64,000 nucleotides of DNA from Christensenellales bacterium. GTDB taxonomy: Bacteria; Bacillota; Clostridia; Christensenellales; UBA1431. The notes under the pieces were generated by a model that was given only the letters and a program-made list of their open reading frames with translations, searched no databases and was not told the DNA's origin. This document shows, piece after piece, positions 1,800-48,276 of this stretch. The stretch is from NCBI GenBank assembly GCA_040772545.1, contig JAXGXY010000004.1, positions 25,613 to 89,612 of the forward strand. Direction: 5' to 3'. Each line of letters begins with the position of its first letter. Positions within the stretch are counted from its first letter, which is position 1. The translations under genes and the position numbers were made by a program.

Positions 1800-2680
1800 G
1801 CGCAAAGCAGCAGCGGCGGCTAGGAAAGGGGCTCCAGGCGCTTATAGGGTCCGAAGAACCCGTATGGGACGAGCGGCAGCCCGGCGAAAAGGGCGTGCGC
1901 CTCATCGACGTCCTGCGCATCGATCCCAACCCCAAGCAGGCGCGCAAACGCTTCGACAAGGAGGCGCTCGAAGGCCTCGCGCAATCCATAGCGATCCACG
2001 GCGTGATCCAGCCGCTGATCGTCGGGGAACAGGGGGAAAGGTACCGCCTGATCGCGGGCGAACGCCGGTGGCGGGCCGCCAAAATGGCGGGCCTGGACAG
2101 GGTGCCCGCCATCGTGACCGACATGGAGGACCGCGCGCAGGTGGAGGTATCGCTGGTGGAGAACCTTCAGCGCGAGGACCTCAACCCGCTCGAAGAGGCG
2201 GCGGGCATCAGATTCCTGATAGAAGAATACGGCCTGACGCAGGAGTCCGCGGCCGAGCGCGTCGGGAAGAGCCGCAGCGCCATAGCGAACGCGCTGAGGC
2301 TTTTGACGCTGCCTTCGCCCGTACAGGACCTGATCTGGACGGGGGAGTTAAGCGCAGGCCACGCGCGCGCCCTGGTCGGGATCGAAGACCAGGATCTTCA
2401 GCAGCGCATGGCAAAAAAGGCGGTCGAAGACGGGCTGTCGGTGCGCGAGATGGAAGCGCTTAAAAGAGACGTGCAGCCCGCGAGGCGCAGGAAGGCCGGC
2501 GATGAGGCGATCCCGCTGGAACTCTTCGAGATGCAGGAGTGCCTGCAAAAAGCGACAGGGATGCGCGTGCGGATCGTGGGAAGCACAAACAGGGGCAGGA
2601 TCACGATAGAATACTACAACAGGGAAGAGATCGAACGGCTCTACGCGATCTTGCAGGACAAAGACGAATGTTTCACGTGA
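1796..2680 (+). CDS. parB: Chromosome partitioning protein ParB/Spo0J
   Basis: MSAKQQRRLGKGLQALI..IDPNPKQARKRFD..LIAGERRWRAAK..VENLQREDLNPLEEA, HTH and C-terminal dimerisation region. The ATG at 1796 overlaps the soj stop (ATGA). The track start at 1727 is an unlikely extension. Confidence 0.95.
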   Translation: MSAKQQRRLGKGLQALIGSEEPVWDERQPGEKGVRLIDVLRIDPNPKQARKRFDKEALEGLAQSIAIHGVIQPLIVGEQGERYRLIAGERRWRAAKMAGLDRVPAIVTDMEDRAQVEVSLVENLQREDLNPLEEAAGIRFLIEEYGLTQESAAERVGKSRSAIANALRLLTLPSPVQDLIWTGELSAGHARALVGIEDQDLQQRMAKKAVEDGLSVREMEALKRDVQPARRRKAGDEAIPLELFEMQECLQKATGMRVRIVGSTNRGRITIEYYNREEIERLYAILQDKDECFT

Positions 2681-2684
2681 AACG
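2669..2684. promoter_or_regulatory. parS: parS centromere site (15/16 match to TGTTTCACGTGAAACA), overlapping the parB stop codon
   Basis: tGTTTCACGTGAAACg. The 14-bp palindromic core is perfect. The parB TGA (2678-2680) lies inside it. Bacillus also carries a parS inside spo0J. Confidence 0.85.
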
Positions 2685-2686
2685 CG

Positions 2687-3110
2687 CCGGAGCAAACTCC
2701 GCACCATCGTCGGAGCAAACTCCGCACCGCTCACCTTCGCGCAAGCGCAAAGGCTCGCTCGCTCCGTTGCTCCTCCTCTTCCCCGCAAAGCTGCGCTTTG
2801 CGGGGAGTTGTTCGGGCGGAGCTTCGTAGGATTGTCCGGGCGAGGCATCGCGGCAAGTTGCTTGGGTGGGGCTTTGCGGGGGTTGTTCGGGATGGGCTTC
2901 GCTCGTCGGAGCAAACTCCGCACCGCTCACCTTCTCGCAAGCGCAAAGGTTCGCTCGCTCCGTTGCTCCTCCTCTTCCCCGCAAAGCTATGCTTTGCGGG
3001 GAGTTGTTCGAGCGGAGCTTCGTAGGATTGTCCGGGCGAGGCATCGAAGCAAGTTGCTTGGGCGGGGCTTCACGGGAGATGTTTAAGCAGGGCTTCGAGT
3101 GATGGTTCGG
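2687..3110 (-). repeat. Type I hairpin-cassette repeats, two tandem ~196-bp units
   Basis: CGGAGCAAACTCCG hairpins occur at 2688, 2711 and 2907. CCCCGCAAAGC-nnn-GCTTTGCGGGG hairpins occur at 2781-2805 and 2977-3001, giving a 196-bp period. The sequence is the reverse complement of modules in 8994-10161. Confidence 0.9.
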
Positions 3111-3328
3111 ACGGGGCATTGGGGAATTCCTTAGGGAAAGCCTTCGCGAGCGCAGCGCGTTACCTCATCTTCCTGCACAGCGCCGCTATGCTGGGGTTTC
3201 GGCGCGAAGGGCTCTGTAGTATTATTTAAGCGGGGCTGCGAAGGGGTTTGGAAGGCGTAAACAGACACCGCGCAACCCACACTGCACGCGGTTATATGCG
3301 GCGCAAGAGAAGAAACCCGTAAACGGAT

Positions 3329-3436: not shown

Positions 3437-3452
3437 CGTTTCACGTGAAACA
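3437..3452. promoter_or_regulatory. parS: Second parS site (15/16), 3 nt beyond the cvpA stop
   Basis: cGTTTCACGTGAAACa. It has the same perfect 14-bp core as 2670-2683. Confidence 0.8.
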
Positions 3453-8993: not shown

Positions 8994-10161
8994 TCGACCT
9001 GTTTTCTATGTGGCGGCAGTATTTGCCGCGCACTCCATGGCAAAGTCCATCCCGAACAACTCCCGCAAAGCCTCGCCCGGACAATCCTACGAAGCCCCGC
9101 CTAAAACAAAACCTACGAAGCCCCGCCCGAACAACTTCCGACGAAGCCTATCCTGAAAAATCCCTGCAAAGCCCTACCAGAATGAACCCCCGCAAAGCGC
9201 AGCTTTGCGGGGAAGAGGAGGAGCAACGGAGCGGTGCGAAGAATCCCCGGAGAGCGCGGAGCGCAAAGGGGATTATGAGCGGAGCGAAGTTTGCTCCGAC
9301 GAGGGAGCGGTGCGAAGAATCCCCGGAGCGCGGAGCGCAAAGGGGATTATGAGCGGAGCGAAGTTTGCTCCGACGAGGGAGCGATGCGAAGAATCCCCGG
9401 AGCGCGGAGCGCAAAGGGGATTTTGAGCGGAGCGAAGTTTGCTCCGACGATGGTGCGAAGTTTGCTCCGACGAGCGAAGCCCAGCCAGAGCAATGCCCGC
9501 AAAGCCCCGCTTGGACAAACCTACGAAGCCCTGCCTAAAACAAAACCTACGAAGTCCCGCCCGAACAACTTCCCGCGAAGCCTATCCTGAAAAATCTCTG
9601 CAAAGCCCTACCAGAATGAATCCCCGCAAAGCGTAGCTTTGCGGGGAAGAGGAGGAGCAACGGAGCGGTGCGAAGAATCCTCGGAGCGCGGAGCGCAAAG
9701 GGGATTATGAGCGGAGCGAAGTTTGCTCCGACGATGGTGCGAAGTTTGCTCCGACGAGCGAAGCCCAGCCAGAGCAATGCCCGCAAAGCCCCGCTTTGAC
9801 AATCCTACGAAGTCCCGCCCGAACAACTTCCCGCGAAGCCTATCCTGAAAAATCTCTGCAAAGCCCTACCAGAATGAATCCCCGCAGAGCGCAGCTTTGC
9901 GGGGAAGAGGAGGAGCAACGGAGCGGTGCGAAGAATCCCCGGAGCGCGAAGCGCAAAGGGGATTATGAGCGGAGCGAAGTTTGCTCCGACGAGGGAGCGG
10001 TGCGAAGAATCCCCGGAGCGCGAAGCGCAAAGGGGATTATGAGCGGAGCGAAGTTTGCTCCGACGAGGGAGCAGTGCGAAGAATCCCCGGAGCGCGAAGC
10101 GCAAAGGGGATTATGAGTGGAGCGAAGTTTACTCCGACGATGGTGCGAAGTTTGCCCGACG
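8994..10161 (+). repeat. Type I hairpin-cassette repeat array (nested tandem repeats)
   Basis: There are three super-units, each with a CCCCGCAAAGC-nnn-GCTTTGCGGGG hairpin (9188-9212, 9622-9646, 9880-9904). These are followed by 3, 1 and 3 copies of a 74-bp unit, starting at 9236/9312/9386, 9669, and 9928/10002/10076. Boundaries are approximate. Confidence 0.9.
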
Positions 10162-10180
10162 CATTGGATAATGCTATAAT
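10152..10180 (+). promoter_or_regulatory. Candidate sigma-A promoter of the SBP gene; its -35 lies in the repeat terminus
   Basis: TTGCCC (10152-10157), 17-nt spacer, perfect TATAAT (10175-10180). GGAGGA RBS and the ATG at 10202 follow. Confidence 0.5.
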
Positions 10181-10201: not shown

Positions 10202-11026
10202 ATGGTCGATCTGAAAAACATCGATTTTGTGAGACTATTCAAAACCGGCGGGAAAATACTCATCGCGGCAGTCGTGCTCGTGGTGCTGCTGCTGCTTTTC
10301 GGCGGGCCGGCGGAAGACGCCGGGGCTTCGCGCTTCGAACAGCTCCTGGGGCGCGGCGTGCTCCGGGCTGGCGTGAGCGAGGACATGCCCAAACTGGGCC
10401 TCTATACGAACGGCAGCGTACAGGGCCTGGAAGCGGACCTGGCCAGACATATCGCAAAGGACATCTTCGGCGAGGGAAGCGAACCGATGCTTTTGCCTTA
10501 CAACGAGCAGACGCGGCAGTACGCGCTGGATAACGGGGAGGCCGACCTGCTGATCTGCAGGCTGTCCAAAGCCGATGTCCCCGAGGACACGTACATCTTT
10601 TCGGACCCCTATTTCATCGACGCGGTAAGTTTCATGGCCAGGGACGGGGATACGATGACTCTCGAGGACCTCAACGGGAAAAAAGTCGCCTGTATCTACA
10701 ACGCCAGCGCGCAGGACGAGTTCGTCAGCGAGGTGAAAAAACGCGGGCTGACGCTGCAGGTGGTCGAATACGCGTCCTACCCCGAAGCGGTGGAGGCGCT
10801 GCAAAAAGGCGCCGTCGACGCCTTTGCCGAGCATACCCTCGTGCTCAGCAAATACCTAAAATCCGGGTACACGATGTCCGCCGATCGTTTCGCGCCGCAG
10901 GAACTCTGCGTGGCGGCCCTGCCCGGGGACGAGGAACTGATGCAGTGCGTGCAGGAAACGCTGCGTGCCCTGGAGCAGAGCGGACAGATGGGGGCGCTGA
11001 GGAAGAAATGGGGCCTGCTCGGCTGA
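10202..11026 (+). CDS. Family-3 solute-binding protein (amino-acid-type SBP), membrane-anchored
   Basis: N-terminal TM helix (ILIAAVVLVVLLLLF) followed by an SBP_bac_3-like body (GVLRAGVSEDMPKLG..GLEADLARHIAKDI..GEADLLI..DPYF). No permease or ATPase gene is adjacent. Confidence 0.75.
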   Translation: MVDLKNIDFVRLFKTGGKILIAAVVLVVLLLLFGGPAEDAGASRFEQLLGRGVLRAGVSEDMPKLGLYTNGSVQGLEADLARHIAKDIFGEGSEPMLLPYNEQTRQYALDNGEADLLICRLSKADVPEDTYIFSDPYFIDAVSFMARDGDTMTLEDLNGKKVACIYNASAQDEFVSEVKKRGLTLQVVEYASYPEAVEALQKGAVDAFAEHTLVLSKYLKSGYTMSADRFAPQELCVAALPGDEELMQCVQETLRALEQSGQMGALRKKWGLLG

Positions 11027-15273: not shown

Positions 15274-15611
15274 AAACTCCCGGCTGTGCCGCGGGTTTCA
15301 AAAAAGCTTAAATGCAGGGGGTGTGGGGGATAATCCCCCACTTCCAATCCGATCTGACGACTCGCCGGAGCAAAATTTGCACCGCTCATCTTCGCGCGGA
15401 GCGCAAAGGCTCGCTCGCTGCGCTCCACCCCAAGCGGCAAGCCGCGAGGGGACCCCGGTTGCTCCTCCACTTCCCCACAAAGCTCCGCTTTGAGGGGGCC
15501 CCGGAGGCAGAAAAATGCCACATGGAGCGGCATTAAACCACAAAGGAAACCGTCGACAAGCCTCGAAGGGATTTGTCGAGGGCCAGAAACCCCCGGCTGT
15601 GCCGGGGGTTT
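15274..15611. repeat. Composite repeat: type II element (15299-15586) interrupted by a type I segment (~15362-15508), bracketed by a duplicated 25-bp hairpin
   Basis: AAACTCCCGGCTGTGCCGCGGGTTT (15274-15298) versus AAACCCCCGGCTGTGCCGGGGGTTT (15587-15611) match at 23/25. The inner ends align with the reverse complement of 62264-62425. The middle carries the CGGAGCAAA.. and CCCCACAAAGC..GCTTTGAGGGG modules. Confidence 0.85.
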
Positions 15612-29440: not shown

Positions 29441-31219
29441 CTATTCCAATACCGCGCGGATGCGGCGCACGCCCGCAGAGGAACTTTCTTCCTTCTTGAT
29501 CCTGAACCTCCCGAGCGCGCCTGTGCGCTCCACATGCGGCCCGCCGCAGATTTCCCGAGACAAGTCGCCGACCGAGTACACCTTGACGACGTTGTCGTAA
29601 CGCGCGTCGAAAACGCCCGTCGCCCCGCTGGCGCGCGCCTCTTCCACCGGCATCTCCTCGCAGTTGACCTCATGGTCGGCCGCGATGGCCTCGTTGACCA
29701 GCGCCTCCACCTTTGACAGCTCCTCCTTCGTCAGCTTCCTGGGGAAGGAAAAGTCGAAGCGCAGGCGTTCGGCGGTGATGTTGCTCCCCTTCTGGGAGAC
29801 CTCGTCCCCCAGTACCCGGCGAAGCGAGGCGAGCAGGAGATGCGTGGCCGTGTGCAGGCGCGTGGTCATTTCGGAGGCGTCCGCGAGCCCGCCCTTGAAG
29901 CGCTGGGACGCGCCGGCCTGCGAAACCTGCCGGTGCTTTTCGAAGCTCTCGTCGAAACCGGACCTGTCCACCGTAAGGTTGCGTTCGGCCGCGAGCTCGA
30001 CGGTCAGTTCGATGGGGAAGCCGTAGGTGTCGTAGAGCCGGAAGGCGTCGGGGCCTTCTATCACGCTGCCGCGGAGGCGCGAGACGAGCTTGTCGAATTC
30101 CCTGAGCCCGTGCGTGATCGTGTTCGCGAACCGGTCCTCCTCGAGGGTCAGCTCCCGCATGACGGCCTCGCGGTTCTCATTTAGCTCCGGATAAACGCCG
30201 CCGTACTGGTCCACGACCGCGGCGGCCACGTGGATGAGCCCGCCTTTTTCGATACCCAGCTGCATGCCGAAGCGGACGGAGCGCCGTATCAGGCGCCGGA
30301 GTACGTAGCCCTGGTCGACGTTTGAAGGGGTGACGCCGCGCTGGTCGCCCAGTATGAACGTCGCGCAGCGGATGTGGTCGGCGACGATGCGCATCGCGCG
30401 CGTCGTGCCTTCGTCCTGCCCGTAGCGTTTCGCGCAGAGTTCGCCGATCACGCGCATGATCCCGGTGAAGACGTCGGTCTCGTATACGGAAGCCTTCCCC
30501 TGCAGGATGCAGGCCGTGCGGTCGAGGCCCATGCCGGTGTCCACGTTTTTCTGCCGCAGCATCTCGTACTTCCCGTCCGCGGTCTTGTTGTATTCCATGA
30601 ATACGTCGTTCCAGATCTCGAGGTACTTCCCGCAGCCGCAGGCCGGGTTGCACCGCGGGGAACAGGGGGGCTTGCCGGTGTCGATGAACATTTCGGTATC
30701 CGGCCCGCACGGGCCCGTCCGGCCGGCGGGGCCCCACCAGTTGTACTTTTTCGGGAGGTAGAAGATGTGGTCATCCCTTACGCCCATCGCCTTCCAGTGC
30801 CCCGCGGACTCCTCGTCGCGCGGGGCGTCGGCGTCGCCCTCGAACACGGTGAAGAAGAGCTTTTCCGGGTCGAGTGCGAGCCATTTGGGCGAGGTAAGGA
30901 ACTCGTAGCTCCAGGCGATGGCCTCTTTCTTGAAATAGTCGCCCAGCGACCAATTCCCGAGCATCTCGAAGAACGTGCAGTGCGACGCGTCGCCCACCGA
31001 ATCGATGTCGCCGGTGCGCACGCATTTCTGCACGTCGGCCAGGCGTTTGCCCTCCGGATGGGACTGCCCCATCAGGTAGGGGACCAGCGGGTGCATCCCC
31101 GCCGTGGTGAAGAGCACGGTCGGGTCGTTTTCGGGAATGAGCGAGGCGCTCGGGATGATGGCGTGCCCGCGCTCCCTGAAAAAGGTCAGGTACATATCTC
31201 GAAGTTCGTCTGCTCTCAT
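29441..31219 (-). CDS. alaS: Alanine--tRNA ligase, short form (592 aa) ending after the editing domain, with no C-Ala domain
   Basis: FFRERGHAIIPSASLIPENDPTVLFTTAGMHP, HCTFFEMLGNWSLGDYFK, EIWNDVFMEYN, editing-domain HTATHLL and CGGPHV, and a final GVRRIRAVLE. GGAG RBS lies before the ATG at 31219. The track start at 31303 is unlikely. Confidence 0.85.
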   Translation of the reverse strand: MRADELRDMYLTFFRERGHAIIPSASLIPENDPTVLFTTAGMHPLVPYLMGQSHPEGKRLADVQKCVRTGDIDSVGDASHCTFFEMLGNWSLGDYFKKEAIAWSYEFLTSPKWLALDPEKLFFTVFEGDADAPRDEESAGHWKAMGVRDDHIFYLPKKYNWWGPAGRTGPCGPDTEMFIDTGKPPCSPRCNPACGCGKYLEIWNDVFMEYNKTADGKYEMLRQKNVDTGMGLDRTACILQGKASVYETDVFTGIMRVIGELCAKRYGQDEGTTRAMRIVADHIRCATFILGDQRGVTPSNVDQGYVLRRLIRRSVRFGMQLGIEKGGLIHVAAAVVDQYGGVYPELNENREAVMRELTLEEDRFANTITHGLREFDKLVSRLRGSVIEGPDAFRLYDTYGFPIELTVELAAERNLTVDRSGFDESFEKHRQVSQAGASQRFKGGLADASEMTTRLHTATHLLLASLRRVLGDEVSQKGSNITAERLRFDFSFPRKLTKEELSKVEALVNEAIAADHEVNCEEMPVEEARASGATGVFDARYDNVVKVYSVGDLSREICGGPHVERTGALGRFRIKKEESSSAGVRRIRAVLE

Positions 31220-31340
31220 GCAAAATCTCCTTACAGCGTAAAATGAAAACCCCCGTGGCACACGCAAAGGCCTGCCTGTGTCCGGCGGGTGATAAATTCG
31301 CACGTATTAATAATAAAGCATACAAACGGGCGGTTGTCAA

Positions 31341-31412
31341 CGTCGGAGCAAACTCCCCGTTGCATAATCGCCTTTGCGCTTGCGCAAAGGCGAGCGGGTG
31401 CGGAGTTTGCGC
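31341..31412 (+). repeat. Solo type I module (long imperfect hairpin)
   Basis: CGGAGCAAACTCC...CGCCTTTGCGC-tt-GCGCAAAGGCG...GCGGAGTTTGC. It matches the reverse complement of 2711-2760. Confidence 0.75.
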
Positions 31413-31420
31413 AGGCGGGG

Positions 31421-43224: not shown

Positions 43225-46077
43225 ATGGCGAACACAACGGGGGGGAGCGGCGTGAAGAAACGGGTAGCGACGGTTTTACTCGCATTGCTGGTGATGCTCA
43301 GCGGTTGGACCTTATTGGATCCACAGACGGCATACGCGGCGTTCAATGGAATTATCAAGGTCCGCATATCGCCTTCCAATCACTCGTCCGACATCCGGGT
43401 CATACCCCACGGGAAGTATTTCATCGCCCAGGCGAAAAGCGTACAACTCCTCGACGTCGAGTACAAGGTCCACCGTTCGGGCAGCAACGTGCAGCTCAAG
43501 CACGGCGGCACGGTGCTCTATTCCGGGCCGAAGCTTACTATCACGCGCGCCGCCGGGAACACGGAGGAAAACTTCATCGTGTTTCCCTACAGCCCGACGC
43601 ATAAGACGCGCACGAACTACTACGGGAACATCGAGTTTTCGGTGAATTCGGGCCTGTGCGCGGTGAACCACGTCTACGTCGAAGACTACGTGATGGGCGT
43701 GGCCCCCTACGAGATGAGCCCGAGCTGGCCGGCGCAGGCGCTCAGGGCGCAGGCCGTCTGCGCGCGCAACTACGGCGTTCGGGCGGCGCTCGCGAGCCCC
43801 TCGGGGACCTGGCACCTCGGGGACACGGCAAGTTCGCAGGTCTACAAGGGCGTTCCGGGCGTGAGTTCGTCGGGGACCATCGACTACACCGCGTACAACA
43901 AAGTCAAGAGCGCCGTCGAGGGCACGTCCCGCAAGGTGATGAAGTACGACGGCGCCGTGTTTTCCGCGTACTACTCCGCCTGGAACGGCGGGGAGACGCT
44001 GAACGTACGCGGCTGGACGGGGAACACGTCGTCAGCCTACGGTTATACCGTCGTCAAATCCGACGTGTACGACGACAAGCGCTGCAAGGACGCCTACTGG
44101 ATCACGCGGACCATCAACACATCGCTTTATTCACCGACCGGCAACGACATCAACATGGCCGTGCAGAACATGCTCGTCAAAAAATACAGGGAGCAATACG
44201 GCGTTACGGCTGCCGATGTATACGTCGTGAGCACGACGGGGATCAAAGGGCAGAAGCCGTCCGGCGTGTCCGAAGTTTCGCTCGTCTACGAAAATTTCTA
44301 CTGCGATGTGAGGTTCAATACGGAGTCGGCCACCAAAAAGGTCACGTTCACGGACACTGACCTCAAGCAGGCCCTCGGCATCAGTTCCTCATACATTGCG
44401 TTCAGGATCGAGAATAATTCGGACGGCACGACGACGCTGTACAACGTGCGCTACGGCCACGGGGTGGGGATGAGCCAGCGCGGCGCGCAGCAGATGGCCA
44501 ACGAGGGCATGGGCCACACGGACATCCTGCGCTTCTACTACAACGGGATCACGTTCAGCACGCTTCCCGTTTCTCCGCCTTCGCTGCCGGCCATGCCGGA
44601 CCAGGGGTCGGAAACGGATAAGGAGTACGTCGGGAAAGTTATCAACTGCACCAGCTACGTAAACGTGCGCTCGGGCCCGGGCACCTCCTCGGCGCTGGTC
44701 GGCACGGCCCCGAAAAACGCCATATACCCCGTAAAAAAGGCGTATTATACGAGCGACTGGCATCAGATCGATTACAACGGCAAGACGGCGTACATCCACA
44801 GGGACTATCTCGCGCTGACGCCCGTGCAGCAGGACACGACGGCCAAGGCGGTAGGCAAGGCGACGCGCAGTTCGTACGTGTACGCATCGGCCACCACGAC
44901 GTCCAGCAAGCTGCTGGCGCTGGGAACGGGGAACCTCATGGACATCCTGGACGTTTCCGGCAACTTCTATAAAGTCGTTGCGGCGGGCAAGACGGGTTAT
45001 GTTCCGATTGCCCACGTGACCATCGTATCGGGCAGCGTAGCGGCGCCGACGCCGAAACCGACGCTGAAACCGACGCCGAAGCCGACGCCGAAACCCACGC
45101 CGAAGCCCACGCCGAAGCCCACGCCGAAGCCCACCGCGGCGTCGAAGGCGGTAGCCAAAGCCACGCGCTTCACGTACGTGTACAAGTCCTCCACGACCTC
45201 GTCGGCAAAGCTCCTCCAGCTCGGCCCCGGGAACCTGATGGACGTGCTGGGCACGGCGGGCAAACTCTATAAAGTGGTTGCGGCGGGAAAAACGGGGTAC
45301 GTGCCCATTTCCCACGTGTCGATCGTGTCGGGCAGCATATCGACGCCGAAGCCTACGCCCAAACCGACGCCGAAGCCTACGCCTAAGCCCACCCAGGCGT
45401 CGAAGGCAGTCGCCAAAGCCACGCGCTTCACGTACGTGTACAAGTCCGCTTCGACCTCGTCGACGAAGGTCCTTCAGCTCGGCACCGGAAACCTGATGGA
45501 CGTGCTGGGCACGTCGGGCAGCTACTATAAAGTGGTTGCGGCGGGGAAGACGGGGTACGTTCCGAAATCCCACTTGTCGATCGTATCGGGCAGCATATCG
45601 ACGCCTAAGCCTACGCCAAAACCGACGCCGAAACCCGCCGACACAAAAACAATAGGGAAAGTGGTCAACTGCAACAGCTACGTGAATGTGCGCTCGGGTC
45701 CCGGCACGTCGAAGGCGCTGGTCGGCACGGCCCCGAAGGGCGCGGAATATCCCGTGAAAAAGGCGTTCTATACGAGCAGCTGGCATCAGATCGAATACAA
45801 GGGCAAGACGGCATACATCCACAAGGACTATCTCAAGATTACGACAGCGCCGAAGCCGAAGCCTACCGCGGCGTCCAAAGCCGTGGCCAAAGCCACGCGC
45901 TTCACGTACGTGTACAAGTCCTCCACGACCTCGTCGTCGAAGCTGCTGAAGCTCGGCCCGGGGAACCTGATGGACGTGCTGGGCACGGCGGGCAAACTCT
46001 ATAAAGTGGTTGCGGCAGGCAAGACGGGGTACGTGCCCGTTTCCCACGTGTCGATCGTGTCGGGCAGCGTCAGCTAA
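43225..46077 (+). CDS. Secreted SpoIID/LytB-domain protein with six SH3b-like repeats and (K/T)P linkers
   Basis: Signal-like N-terminus, SpoIID motifs (YVEDYVMGVAPYEM, ALRAQAVCARNYG, YGHGVGMSQRGAQQMA), two NCxSYVNVRSGPGTS SH3b domains, four KATRFTYVYKS...GKTGYVP repeats, and KPTPKPTP linkers. Confidence 0.85.
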   Translation: MANTTGGSGVKKRVATVLLALLVMLSGWTLLDPQTAYAAFNGIIKVRISPSNHSSDIRVIPHGKYFIAQAKSVQLLDVEYKVHRSGSNVQLKHGGTVLYSGPKLTITRAAGNTEENFIVFPYSPTHKTRTNYYGNIEFSVNSGLCAVNHVYVEDYVMGVAPYEMSPSWPAQALRAQAVCARNYGVRAALASPSGTWHLGDTASSQVYKGVPGVSSSGTIDYTAYNKVKSAVEGTSRKVMKYDGAVFSAYYSAWNGGETLNVRGWTGNTSSAYGYTVVKSDVYDDKRCKDAYWITRTINTSLYSPTGNDINMAVQNMLVKKYREQYGVTAADVYVVSTTGIKGQKPSGVSEVSLVYENFYCDVRFNTESATKKVTFTDTDLKQALGISSSYIAFRIENNSDGTTTLYNVRYGHGVGMSQRGAQQMANEGMGHTDILRFYYNGITFSTLPVSPPSLPAMPDQGSETDKEYVGKVINCTSYVNVRSGPGTSSALVGTAPKNAIYPVKKAYYTSDWHQIDYNGKTAYIHRDYLALTPVQQDTTAKAVGKATRSSYVYASATTTSSKLLALGTGNLMDILDVSGNFYKVVAAGKTGYVPIAHVTIVSGSVAAPTPKPTLKPTPKPTPKPTPKPTPKPTPKPTAASKAVAKATRFTYVYKSSTTSSAKLLQLGPGNLMDVLGTAGKLYKVVAAGKTGYVPISHVSIVSGSISTPKPTPKPTPKPTPKPTQASKAVAKATRFTYVYKSASTSSTKVLQLGTGNLMDVLGTSGSYYKVVAAGKTGYVPKSHLSIVSGSISTPKPTPKPTPKPADTKTIGKVVNCNSYVNVRSGPGTSKALVGTAPKGAEYPVKKAFYTSSWHQIEYKGKTAYIHKDYLKITTAPKPKPTAASKAVAKATRFTYVYKSSTTSSSKLLKLGPGNLMDVLGTAGKLYKVVAAGKTGYVPVSHVSIVSGSVS
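44632..46074 (+). repeat. Intragenic domain repeats (near-identical at DNA level)
   Basis: 45139-45335 and 45868-46062 are almost identical nucleotide stretches. The CCGAARCCSACG (KPTP) micro-repeat spans 45049-45132 and recurs at ~45346-45390 and ~45603-45635. Confidence 0.85.
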
Positions 46078-47988: not shown

Positions 47989-48276
47989 GGTGCTAGCACC
48001 CGGCCAGACTATAAAACAAGCCGCGCCGCCGGGGTCGAGCGTTGTTTTGTCAAATAGAAGCTTTACCCGGAAGATTTCCACAGCGCTTTACCCAGGCAAA
48101 TCCTTCAAAACCTTGCACGAATGAATCCCACAGGGCCTCACCTGAACAAACCGCACAAAGCGAAGCTTTGGGCGGAAGAGGAGGAGCAACGGAGCGGTGC
48201 GAGGAACCCCCGACGCGCGCAGCGCATAGGGGGTTACGGGCGAAGCGGAGTTTGCTCCGACGTGGGTGCTAGCACC
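47989..48276 (+). repeat. Type I repeat element (48001-48264) bracketed by a duplicated 12-bp palindrome
   Basis: GGTGCTAGCACC occurs at 47989-48000 and again at 48265-48276. The interior carries a degenerate H1 hairpin (48151-48175), AAGAGGAGGAGCAACGGAGCG and the terminal CGGAGTTTGCTCCG (48246-48259). Confidence 0.85.

What the first reader, a model, noticed from the sequence alone, without database searches (positions are those of the whole stretch)
2687..3110. Type I modular hairpin-cassette repeat family at five or more intergenic loci in 64 kb
The same short modules recur outside CDSs and in both orientations at 2687-3110, 8994-10161, ~15362-15508, 31341-31412 and 48001-48264. H1 is CCCCGCAAAGC-nnn-GCTTTGCGGGG (11-bp stem) followed by the purine tract AAGAGGAGGAGCAACGGAGCG. 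H2 is a 74-bp unit with AATCCCC-N17-GGGGATT and CGGAGC-GAAGTTT-GCTCCG stems. H3 is CGCCTTTGCGC-tt-GCGCAAAGGCG. A terminal CGGAGCAAACTCCG hairpin is often doubled with ACCATCGT between copies. One end of the element is well defined: the terminal hairpin sits 3-5 nt from flanking unique DNA at 2688, 48259 and 10158. No transposase, RAYT or integrase lies in the window. I do not recognise the sequence as BOX, RUP, ERIC, REP/BIME or Correia. It looks like a non-autonomous mobile or recombinogenic structured element family that has not been catalogued, as far as I can tell.
Basis: seen in the sequence. Interest (0 to 1): 0.7.

Follow-up and report, generated by a model that had tools for sequence, protein, structure and literature searches.

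The report
Uncatalogued two-hairpin mobile repeat of Clostridia
The repeats are real and are built on a conserved 100-115-nt two-hairpin element that I could not find in any library or paper searched; it is spread through Clostridia, their conjugative elements and prophages, inserts into new sites (even in-frame into genes), and lands with one end exactly against tRNA and rRNA gene ends.

Summary
The window holds six complete units, two degenerate copies and at least nine partial units at the five reported loci. It reads: variable hairpin H1, then RAGAGGAGGAGCAACGGAGCG, then a variable apical hairpin, then AGCGNAGUUUGC(GA/UC)CGACGA.

The purine tract pairs with the 3' tail, through tandem G.A pairs or Watson-Crick pairs. 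A covariance model found 105 units in 80 sources, from gut, termite, sediment and digester metagenomes, MAGs and viral contigs. Covariation is strong, with 12 of 12 H1 pairs showing compensatory changes. Folding is strand-specific.

There is no Rfam 15, Pfam or literature match.

Mobility is supported. Two different relaxase genes carry in-frame 33-35-codon insertions that close homologues lack. A syntenic sister species has none. Conspecific strains differ in copy number. There are no terminal inverted repeats and no target duplications.

The tail lies 0-4 nt from tRNA, 5S and 23S gene ends. The insertion mechanism is unknown; I infer a single-stranded intermediate mobilised in trans.

The parts
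2686..2708 (-). Tail-only partial unit (rc: CGATGGTGCGGAGTTTGCTCCGG). Its end lies 2 nt from the parS site at 2669-2684.
2706..2806 (-).
   Evidence: CM R1 74.4 bits, E=1.2e-14; fold -57.5 kcal/mol, z=-5.7
2807..2901 (-). Leader repeats: degenerate ~26-nt units made of GAACAA plus the 5' arm of H1.
2902..3002 (-). Complete unit.
   Evidence: CM 72.9 bits, E=2.5e-14
3003..3285 (-). Degenerate ~26-nt leader repeats that fade into unique DNA. Present in strains L027 and L033 with different unit counts.
9040..9187 (+). Leader repeats, about 5 units of ~26 nt.
   Evidence: TRF period 26
9188..9303 (+).
   Evidence: CM 56 bits, E=1.3e-10; fold -57.8 kcal/mol, z=-5.9
9304..9451 (+). Two 74-nt 5'-truncated units. 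Each starts at the internal GGAGCG and ends at the tail CGACGAG or CGACGAT.
   Evidence: TRF period 74
9452..9474 (+). 23-nt tail-only unit, GGTGCGAAGTTTGCTCCGACGAG.
9475..9620 (+). Leader repeats.
9621..9735 (+). Complete unit.
   Evidence: CM 60.8 bits, E=1.1e-11
9736..9758 (+). 23-nt tail-only unit.
9759..9878 (+). Leader repeats.
9879..9993 (+). Complete unit.
   Evidence: CM 55.6 bits, E=1.5e-10
9994..10141 (+). Two 74-nt 5'-truncated units.
   Evidence: TRF
10142..10161 (+). Degenerate tail-only unit. The array ends here, 40 nt before the SBP_3 gene start at 10202.
15362..15508 (-). Diverged full copy. H1 has 2 mismatches, the tract reads AAGTGGAGGAGCAAC, and about 35 nt are inserted. 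Absent at this site in strains L027 and L033.
   Evidence: CM only 15.3 bits, E=0.1
31341..31417 (.). Fragment: an inverted tail (31341-31357) followed by a sense 3' half with a perfect 12-bp hairpin (31368-31393) and a tail-like GGAGTTTGCGCAGGCG.
   Evidence: CM 18.1 bits, E=0.026
48060..48150 (+). Degenerate leader-like sequence.
48151..48264 (+). Complete unit. The tail is followed directly by the palindrome GGTGCTAGCACC.
   Evidence: CM 46.1 bits, E=1.9e-8; fold z=-5.1

Best explanation
The window carries amplified, tandemly expanded copies of a widespread, previously undescribed, non-autonomous insertion element of about 100-115 nt.

**Anatomy of one unit on its purine-rich strand**

1. 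A short leader (GAACA or TTGGGG).
2. Hairpin H1, about 12 bp, free in sequence.
3. Hairpin 2, a long irregular hairpin. Its base is the conserved tract RAGAGGAGGAGCAAC paired with the 3' tail GUUUGC(GA/UC)CGACGA. That base has a G:C pair every third position with tandem G.A/A.G pairs between them, or Watson-Crick pairs in variants.
4. Above the base, a 3x3 purine loop (GGA/GNA) and a GC/GC helix.
5. On top, a variable apical hairpin.

**Shown**

- The fold, its covariation and its strand specificity.
- The element's spread across Clostridia, ICEs and prophages.
- Insertion polymorphism, including in-frame insertions in coding genes.
- The lack of terminal inverted repeats and target duplications.
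- The position of the tail 0-4 nt from mature ends of tRNA, 5S and 23S genes.

**Inferred**

- The element is copied or moved in trans through a single-stranded intermediate.
- The invariant base of hairpin 2 is the recognition site of the mobilising machinery.
- The arrays in this Christensenellales genome grew by repeated tail-anchored partial copying or slippage. Every 74-nt and 23-nt partial unit ends at the tail and starts at an internal GG(A/U)GCG.
- Where it is transcribed in sense, usually downstream of a co-oriented gene, it forms a very stable RNA structure. That structure may secondarily affect mRNA processing or stability.
For: **Unit and conservation.** The same architecture, with different hairpin sequences, appears in MAGs of Acutalibacteraceae, Eubacteriales, Bacillota and Anaerovoracaceae. 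It also appears in 12 IMG/VR contigs and at least 120 metagenome contigs.

**Covariance model.** Model R1 gave 105 hits at E<1e-4.

**Covariation.**
- H1 is 94.8% paired, and 12 of 12 pairs have double changes.
- The covariation score is 0.312, against 0.092 in shuffles (0 of 500 reach it) and at most 0.055 in slid controls.
- In the long-range helix, A:U changes to G:C 5 times and G:C to C:G 3 times.
- Two adjacent positions switch between Watson-Crick and G.A/A.G pairs about 50:50.
- L114 has a fully Watson-Crick helix.
- The Subdoligranulum plasmid variant has changes on both strands.

**Strand specificity.**
- H1 has 61 G.U pairs against 13 A.C pairs.
- The forward strand folds 6-15 kcal/mol better than the reverse.
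- The apical hairpin has a median energy of -17.3 kcal/mol, and 83% have z<-2.

**Mobility.**
- Relaxase P0034/P0036 carries a 35-aa insert absent from 7 homologues.
- The second relaxase, P0154 (482 aa), compares with more than 100 homologues of 447 aa.
- The sister species locus L025 is syntenic and has no unit, even with filters off.
- Strains L027, L028 and L033 differ in unit numbers at three loci.

**Tail adjacency.**
- 18 of 105 tails lie within -3 to +2 nt of a tRNA gene boundary. One head lies at 13 nt.
- 16 of 55 distinct tRNA genes have CCA followed by the reverse complement of the tail.
- The tail also abuts 23S and 5S 5' ends.

**Mobile-element context.** Neighbours include T4SS genes, relaxases, a methylase, phage capsid and terminase genes.

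**Partial units.** Orphan tails outnumber orphan cores 43 to 21, and most orphan cores are chance or variant hits.
Against: - No enzyme that could move the element was identified. None recurs next to it apart from ICE backbone genes.
- The two empty sites show small replacements (3 and 9 nt) rather than clean insertions. The donor and acceptor steps are therefore unknown.
- The strong sense bias next to protein genes would also fit a selected RNA function. Upstream genes are co-oriented 55 to 20, and tandem contexts are sense 20 to 4.
- The element's fixed position before 23S or 5S genes in several taxa would also fit an RNA function.
- Near-invariance of about 35 nt across hosts of 42-67% GC is more than most selfish repeats show.
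- The loci were fished with the conserved core itself. Invariance of the core is therefore partly ascertainment.
Confidence: 0.7

Rival explanations
1. It is a cis-acting structured RNA with a host function. It would act as an intercistronic or 3'-UTR processing, stability or insulator element, and as a flank that helps define the ends of tRNA, 5S and 23S precursors. It would be multi-copy because it is useful, and conserved because a universal partner binds the purine-rich helix. Candidate partners are an RNase, a ribosomal or L7Ae-like protein, the ribosome's anti-SD, or CsrA/Hfq-type proteins.
For: - Covariation and G.U asymmetry are typical of a functional RNA.
- The element is sense in 20 of 24 tandem gene contexts, and the upstream gene is co-oriented 55 to 20.
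- It sits 0-2 nt upstream of tRNA, 5S and 23S 5' ends.
- It sits directly upstream of ribosome-binding sites in phage operons.
- It is rich in GGA motifs and tandem G.A pairs, a common protein-binding feature (established knowledge).
Against: - Intact copies lie antisense to rRNA operons, as in L067 and L057.
- 14 of 18 tRNA-adjacent copies are in the orientation opposite to the tRNA.
- In-frame copies sit inside relaxase ORFs.
- The element is absent from a syntenic sister species.
- Array size differs between conspecific strains.
- It has no fixed gene association.
Confidence: 0.2
2. It is a single-stranded-DNA transposon remnant or hitch-hiker, mobilised by an HUH/Y1 enzyme. The enzyme would be an IS200/IS605 TnpA, a RAYT-like protein or a conjugative relaxase. 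It would recognise the hairpin foot and cut at the tail.
For: - No terminal inverted repeats and no target duplication.
- Subterminal hairpins at both ends.
- Folding of one strand only, with non-canonical pairs.
- Enrichment in ICEs and prophages, which pass through ssDNA stages.
- Two insertions lie inside relaxase genes.
Against: - No conserved 4-5-nt target lies 5' of the left end at the two empty sites.
- H1 and hairpin 2 are unlike each other.
- No Y1 transposase or RAYT was seen among the neighbours clustered or in the window.
- Both orientations occur within one replichore. GC skew is positive throughout, with 4 units on the + strand and 3 on the - strand.
- The oriT-side region of L156 shows no similarity to the element.
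Confidence: 0.25
3. It is an RNA-mediated, SINE-like retroposon. An element RNA whose 3' end is the tail would be copied by a reverse transcriptase. Priming by tRNA CCA-3'OH, or end-to-end template switching from the 5' ends of abundant stable RNAs, would create the observed junctions. 5'-truncated, tail-anchored copies would build the arrays.
For: - Junctions coincide with mature RNA termini: the tRNA CCA end, and the tRNA, 5S and 23S 5' ends. There are 0-4 extra nucleotides at the junction.
- The 23S 5' end is not a local DNA hairpin, so an RNA end fits better than a DNA structure.
- Partial units are tail-anchored and 5'-truncated.
- There is a sense bias in transcribed regions.
Against: - No RT gene was seen near any copy.
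- There is no A-rich tail and no target duplication.
- The insertions in relaxase ORFs and next to parS involve no stable RNA.
- Nearly all tRNA genes in these taxa encode CCA anyway (36 of 39), so CCA at the junction is not diagnostic.
- This kind of retroposition is unknown in bacteria (my own knowledge).
Confidence: 0.1
4. It is only local tandem duplication or slippage of a chance palindromic sequence, or a protein-coding repeat.
For: Tandem periods of 23, 26, 74 and 196 bp are present. Long stop-free frames run through the element.
Against: - The periods are not multiples of 3.
- The same unit recurs at five unlinked window loci and in more than 100 unrelated contigs.
- It occurs in rRNA spacers.
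- It matches no Pfam family.
Confidence: 0.02

Closest known systems
Rickettsia palindromic elements (RPE; Ogata et al. 2000, my own knowledge)
   Same: - Small (about 100-150 bp), non-autonomous and hairpin-forming.
- Insert in-frame into protein-coding genes and are translated.
- Also found in or near RNA genes.
- No transposase known.
   Different: - RPEs are confined to Rickettsia and relatives.
- They are not known from ICEs or phages.
- They have no invariant purine/tandem-G.A helix.
- They are not reported to abut tRNA or rRNA ends.
- Sequence relatedness could not be tested here.
REP/BIME and REPIN elements with RAYT transposases (my own knowledge)
   Same: - High-copy extragenic hairpins, usually downstream of genes.
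- Clustered in arrays and strain-variable.
- Co-transcribed with flanking genes.
- Moved in trans by a single-copy enzyme acting on a folded single strand.
   Different: - No GTAG/GNAG head was seen.
- The unit is a two-hairpin module of about 105 nt, not a palindrome of 20-40 nt.
- No RAYT was seen.
- The element occurs inside ORFs and in mobile elements, and across families.
BOX elements of Streptococcus pneumoniae (my own knowledge)
   Same: Modular A-B(n)-C build with a tandemly reiterated middle module. Intergenic, structured and strain-variable.
   Different: Here the reiterated modules are tail-anchored truncations of one conserved fold. The distribution goes far beyond one genus. The sequence is unrelated by eye; no model was available to test it.
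bcr1-type, ERIC, Correia/NEMIS and EFAR repeats (MITE-like repeats that fold as RNA; my own knowledge)
   Same: Dispersed small repeats transcribed with neighbouring genes. RNA folds are supported by compensatory changes. They can modulate mRNA fate.
   Different: Those repeats have terminal inverted repeats and target duplications (for example TA or TTTAT). This element has neither.
IS200/IS605-derived palindrome-associated elements (PATEs)
   Same: No terminal inverted repeats, no target duplication, subterminal hairpins, activity of a single strand.
   Different: No conserved target tetranucleotide, no similarity between the left and right hairpins, no parent IS found, and no replication-strand bias in the window.

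Membership tests
Any Rfam 15 family (including twister, hammerhead, pistol, hatchet, HEARO, IS605-orfB, Clostridiales-1, Mu-gpT-DE) | Covariance-model score at or above the family's gathering threshold | tested here: not met
   There were no hits on the element in the window, in 10 canonical loci or in 36 other loci. E-value scans gave only chance-level hits, for example Clostridiales-1 at 14 bits against 48 needed and ylbH at 19.6 against 50.
DDE-type MITE | Terminal inverted repeats | tested here: not met
   The left end is WWTTGGGGNN-H1 and the right end is GUUUGCGACGACG. They are not reverse complements of each other.
DDE-type MITE | Target-site duplication flanking the insert | tested here: not met
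   In two filled/empty comparisons, 3 nt and 9 nt of target were replaced and nothing was duplicated.
REP/REPIN (RAYT-dependent) | Conserved GTAG/GNAG tetranucleotide 5' of a palindrome of 20-40 nt | tested here: not met
   The unit consensus has no such head. The conserved parts are the purine tract and the tail.
REP/REPIN (RAYT-dependent) | A RAYT gene in the genome, flanked by the repeats | not testable with these tools
   No complete genome is held. None was seen among the 29 window ORFs scanned or in the neighbour clustering of 682 ORFs.
IS200/IS605-derived PATE | No TIR, no TSD, subterminal hairpins | tested here: met
IS200/IS605-derived PATE | Insertion 3' of a fixed 4-5-nt target, and orientation tied to the lagging-strand template | tested here: not met
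   The left flanks AAGGAC| and TGCCGG| differ. Both orientations occur in one replichore.
RPE-like in-frame palindromic insertion elements | In-frame insertion into conserved protein genes, absent from close homologues | tested here: met
   Two relaxase families show it at different sites.
RPE-like in-frame palindromic insertion elements | Sequence homology to the Rickettsia RPE families | not tested
   No RPE model or sequence was available in the tools.
SINE / non-LTR retroposon | 3'-anchored copies with variable 5' truncation | tested here: inconclusive
   Tail-anchored 74-nt and 23-nt units are present, and orphan tails outnumber orphan cores 43 to 21. Slippage can give the same pattern.
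SINE / non-LTR retroposon | Target-site duplication, A-rich tail, partner reverse transcriptase | tested here: not met
   There is no TSD and no A-tail. An RT partner could not be tested.
CRISPR array | Identical repeats separated by unique spacers of similar length | tested here: not met
   The units are contiguous head-to-tail with no spacers.

The most novel reading that the evidence does not exclude
The element is a bacterial SINE-like retroposon. Its transcript, ending at the conserved tail, would be copied by a reverse transcriptase. Copying would be primed by tRNA CCA ends, or would follow template switching from the 5' ends of tRNA, 5S and 23S RNA. The cDNA would then be patched into the chromosome, ICEs and phages. 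That would explain junctions at mature RNA termini, tail-anchored 5'-truncated copies, the sense bias, and the absence of TIRs and TSDs.
Probability: 0.1. Interest if true: 0.95.

Novelty: new variant of a known kind. Interest (0 to 1): 0.7.

Why it matters
- **Assembly and annotation.** This is a high-copy structured element that breaks short-read assemblies of gut and digester Clostridia; several contigs end in it. It also creates spurious ORFs, lengthens real proteins and reshapes rRNA spacers. A model for it improves annotation directly.
- **Horizontal spread.** It travels on ICEs and prophages, including next to a resistance gene on a Subdoligranulum plasmid.
- **RNA structure.** The invariant purine helix with tandem G.A pairs is a defined target for structural and protein-binding work.
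- **Insertion mechanism.** The rule that the tail sits on mature ends of tRNA and rRNA genes has no ready explanation. It makes an unknown insertion or copying mechanism experimentally approachable.

Tried and rejected
- **Rfam at both thresholds:** nothing.
- **Sequence strings and keywords in the paper library, and the supplements of a gut structured-RNA survey:** nothing. Only the first 200 of 408 supplement files were searched.
- **INPHARED phages:** two unannotated faecal phage contigs for the ICE-type unit, none for the window unit.
- **PLSDB plasmids:** one hit.
- **MAFFT plus RNAalifold on raw units:** failed to align the variable hairpins and found only the long-range pairs. N-padded seeds were gapped by MAFFT. 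I therefore used a same-geometry seed with a hand-written structure.
- **Exact-protein look-ups of window proteins:** failed. Cluster members gave the strain loci instead.
- **A generic test for a hairpin right after the tail:** no enrichment over controls, because the criterion was too loose.
- **CCA at junctions as a test of tRNA priming:** uninformative, because 36 of 39 other tRNA genes also encode CCA.
- **Ideas rejected on the sequence:**
  - attC site.
  - sigma-54 or sigma-70 promoter.
  - Frpo-like ssDNA promoter.
  - Intrinsic terminator, because there is no U-tract.
  - boxA/nut site; a separate boxA-like motif lies elsewhere in the L071 spacer.
  - Small-peptide gene.
  - oriT copy.
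Full report

Yes. The 22-nt purine tract occurs exactly six times in the window, against 0 expected. The H1 palindrome occurs six times. The tail hairpin motif occurs 15 times, against 0.99 expected. TRF reports periods of 196, 74, 26 and 23 bp at the stated places.

Self-BLAST confines this repeat DNA to 2684-3128, 9040-10165, 15298-15584, 31341-31410 and 48144-48269. All five loci are intergenic. They lie between housekeeping genes: parB/cvpA, cca/SBP_3, a GT2 gene/DUF3048, alaS/M20, and a methyltransferase/Gate-domain gene. None of the periods is a multiple of three.

**2. What the unit is.**

A scan of one genome per species with the purine tract returned 12 loci from five MAGs with GC content of 43-65%. 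In every locus the tract was preceded by a hairpin of different sequence. It was followed by another variable hairpin and then by GCGGAGTTTGCGACGACG. IMG/VR contigs showed the same layout.

It gave about 100 genuine units from human gut, termite gut, sediment and fermenters.

**3. Structure.**

I built a covariance model from 15 same-geometry units with a hand-written structure. It finds six full units in the window at 46-74 bits (E of 2e-8 or lower) and two weak ones. It finds 105 units in 80 sources.

*Hairpin H1.* On the resulting alignment H1 is 94.8% paired, and all 12 pairs carry compensatory double changes. The covariation score is 0.312. Shuffled controls give 0.092 (0 of 500 reach the observed value) and slid controls give at most 0.055.

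*Long-range helix.* The purine tract pairs with the tail.
- G:C pairs at every third position are nearly invariant.
- The positions between them are G.A/A.G in 93-104 of 105 units.
- Two further positions are either G:C plus A:U (the 'UCC' tails, as in the window) or G.A plus A.G (the 'GAC' tails), about 50:50.
- Compensatory changes occur: A:U to G:C five times and G:C to C:G three times.
- L114 has a fully Watson-Crick 13-bp version.
- A Subdoligranulum variabile plasmid copy changes both strands together: GGA to GCC with GAC to GGC, and A to G with U to C.

*Apical segment.* It has 101 distinct sequences, a median energy of -17.3 kcal/mol, and z<-2 in 83% of units.

*Strand specificity.* Only the purine-rich strand folds this way. 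H1 has 61 G.U pairs against 13 A.C pairs. The forward strand is 6-15 kcal/mol more stable than its complement.

**4. Not catalogued, as far as I could test.**

Rfam 15 gave no hit at gathering thresholds and only noise at E up to 10. The translated element matches no Pfam family. Nothing turned up in full-text searches or in the part of one large gut-RNA survey's supplements that was held.

**5. Evidence that it inserts.**

(a) In L072 the unit lies inside a MobA/VirD2 relaxase ORF, in frame. The 508-aa protein and a 72%-identical 509-aa relative carry 'GDPTKSQDFVGKGGATERVSFSPQGGNEQSAVCDDA'. Seven homologues of 471-478 aa lack it. At the DNA level:
- empty site: AAGGAC|GAG|GACGCATT
- filled site: AAGGAC|AAAATTGGGG...GTTTGCGAC|GACGCATT

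(b) In L112 a different relaxase family carries the same kind of insert at another site. It is 482 aa, against more than 100 homologues of 447 aa. At the DNA level:
- empty site: TGCCGG|GCCTCGGAT|CAGGAACG
- filled site: 9 nt replaced by 114 nt, a net gain of 35 codons

The model finds no unit at the empty sites. Neither site shows terminal inverted repeats or a target duplication.

(c) A sister species (72% amino-acid identity, same gene order) has no unit in 20.8 kb. The window has five in the homologous stretch.

(d) Conspecific Christensenellales strains differ in intergenic length at three loci:

| Intergenic region | Window | L027 | L033 |
|---|---|---|---|
| parB-cvpA | 774 bp | 659 bp | 682 bp |
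| cca-SBP | 1264 bp | 583 bp | 376 bp |
| GT2-DUF3048 | 477 bp | 318 bp | 174 bp |

The GT2-DUF3048 copy is absent in both other strains.

**6. Context.**

*Recurrent neighbours.* These are ICE and T4SS genes: a VirB4-like ATPase, NlpC/P60, an MT-A70 methylase, a CD1107-like protein, a relaxase, VirD4 and PrgI. Prophage head and terminase genes also recur. No transposase, integrase or RT recurs, and none was found among the 29 window ORFs scanned.

*Orientation next to protein genes.* With crude ORF calls, the upstream gene is co-oriented 55 to 20. Tandem contexts are sense 20 to 4.

*Orientation and replication.* GC skew is positive across the whole window, so it is one replichore. It nevertheless holds four units on the + strand and three on the - strand. 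Orientation is therefore not set by replication.

**7. The tail rule.**

- 18 of 105 units end within -3 to +2 nt of a tRNA gene boundary. Of these, 14 abut the CCA 3' end in opposite orientation and 4 abut the 5' end in the same orientation. Eleven tRNA identities are involved. The head is never adjacent; the single nearest case is at 13 nt.
- 16 of 55 distinct tRNA genes in the held loci have CCA followed within 0-4 nt by the reverse complement of the tail.
- The tail also abuts 23S 5' ends (L041, L071, L130, L150) and 5S 5' ends (L039, L101, L151).
- In the window lineage, intact copies lie antisense within 16S-23S spacers (L057, L067).
- In the window and its strains, tails abut the two parS palindromes.

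I have no established explanation for this rule.

**8. The window's arrays.**

Each macro-unit has three parts:
- Degenerate ~26-nt leader repeats, each made of GAACAA plus the 5' arm of H1.
- One complete unit.
- A run of partial units: 74-nt pieces starting at the internal GGAGCG, and 23-nt pieces starting at GGUGCG. Every piece ends at ...CGACGA(G/U).

Orphan tails outnumber orphan cores 43 to 21 in all held loci, and most orphan cores are chance or variant hits. In 'UCC' lineages the tail can also pair locally with the duplicated CGGAGC. Strain differences are whole modules. This fits slippage or repeated tail-anchored partial copying.

**9. Mechanism.**

*Best supported (0.7).* This is a non-autonomous insertion element that acts through one folded strand. 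The conserved base of hairpin 2 serves as the recognition site for an unidentified trans-acting machinery. RNA-level effects where it is transcribed are secondary.

*Rivals.*
- A selected cis-acting RNA (0.2). It is supported by the sense bias and the positions before rRNA and tRNA genes. It is opposed by antisense and in-ORF copies and by polymorphism.
- HUH/Y1 ssDNA mobilisation as the specific route (0.25). It fits the lack of TIRs and TSDs, the hairpins and the ssDNA-phase hosts. There is no fixed target and no enzyme was seen.
- RNA-mediated SINE-like copying (0.1). It fits junctions at mature RNA ends and 5'-truncated units. There is no RT, no TSD, and some insertion sites have no stable RNA nearby.

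These routes are sub-hypotheses of, or alternatives to, the main statement, and they are not mutually exclusive with it. The numbers therefore do not sum to one.

**10. Comparison and novelty.**

The element works most like Rickettsia RPEs (in-frame, palindromic, orphan of any transposase). It also resembles REP/REPIN, BOX and bcr1/ERIC-type structured repeats. It fails the defining features of DDE MITEs (TIR, TSD), REPs (GTAG head) and IS200/IS605 PATEs (fixed target). It matches no Rfam family.

I rate it a new variant of a known kind, namely small non-autonomous structured repeats. Four unusual traits stand out:
- Spread across families on ICEs and phages.
- An invariant tandem-G.A helix.
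- Insertion into relaxase genes.
- The tail-to-stable-RNA-end rule.

Caveats:
- All loci were fished with the conserved core.
- ORF calling was crude.
- No complete genome was available.
- E-values from the model are rough.

Noticed in passing
window 2669-2684 and 3437-3452: Two parS sites (TGTTTCACGTGAAAC) flank the parB-cvpA intergenic region. Element tails abut them in the window and, in strains L027 and L033, at the second site as well.
   Followed up: partly
window 29441-31303 (-): The alanyl-tRNA synthetase ORF is only 620 aa. It has the catalytic and SAD domains and no C-terminal DHHA1 part. I did not check whether this is a natural short form or a frameshift.
   Followed up: no
window 45045-45636: The 258-bp and 12-bp tandem repeats lie inside a SpoIID/SH3_3-repeat protein gene (43225-46077, + strand). 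They are coding domain repeats, unrelated to the finding.
   Followed up: partly
L137 674-772 and 779-1142: A unit lies convergent with, and 7 nt from, an OLE RNA (RF01071, 233 bits).
   Followed up: no
L001, L004, L006, L011 (Acutalibacteraceae MAG JAZQTF01): Other, different repeat families sit next to the element: GTCGCTCATGCCGCGACGGGCAC... and CCTTCCCCTTGAGGGGAAGGTGGGA hairpins. In this genome, tandem units join at GTTTGCGG|NAACAGGG, so that only the last unit keeps the full tail.
   Followed up: no
L020 2467-9557: A series of ORFs with LPD3 (polyvalent-protein) domains and an ADP-ribosyltransferase are separated by two units 4.7 kb apart.
   Followed up: partly
L159 20001-20102 (Subdoligranulum variabile plasmid OY725877.1): This is a variant unit in a cultured organism (81 bits), 1.8 kb from an aadE aminoglycoside-resistance gene. 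Its core differs from the consensus by paired changes on both strands.
   Followed up: partly
L030, L031, L032, L034, L007, L024: Short-read contigs end inside or right at the element, for example 70-92 bp upstream of the SBP gene. The repeat breaks assemblies, and copy numbers in MAGs are likely underestimated.
   Followed up: no
L107 1634-3277 (-): A fused N6_N4/MT-A70 DNA methylase ORF runs through a unit at its 3' end, with no stop codon before it. The unit therefore appears to add a C-terminal extension of about 60 aa. A second unit lies in the apparent 5' region.
   Followed up: partly
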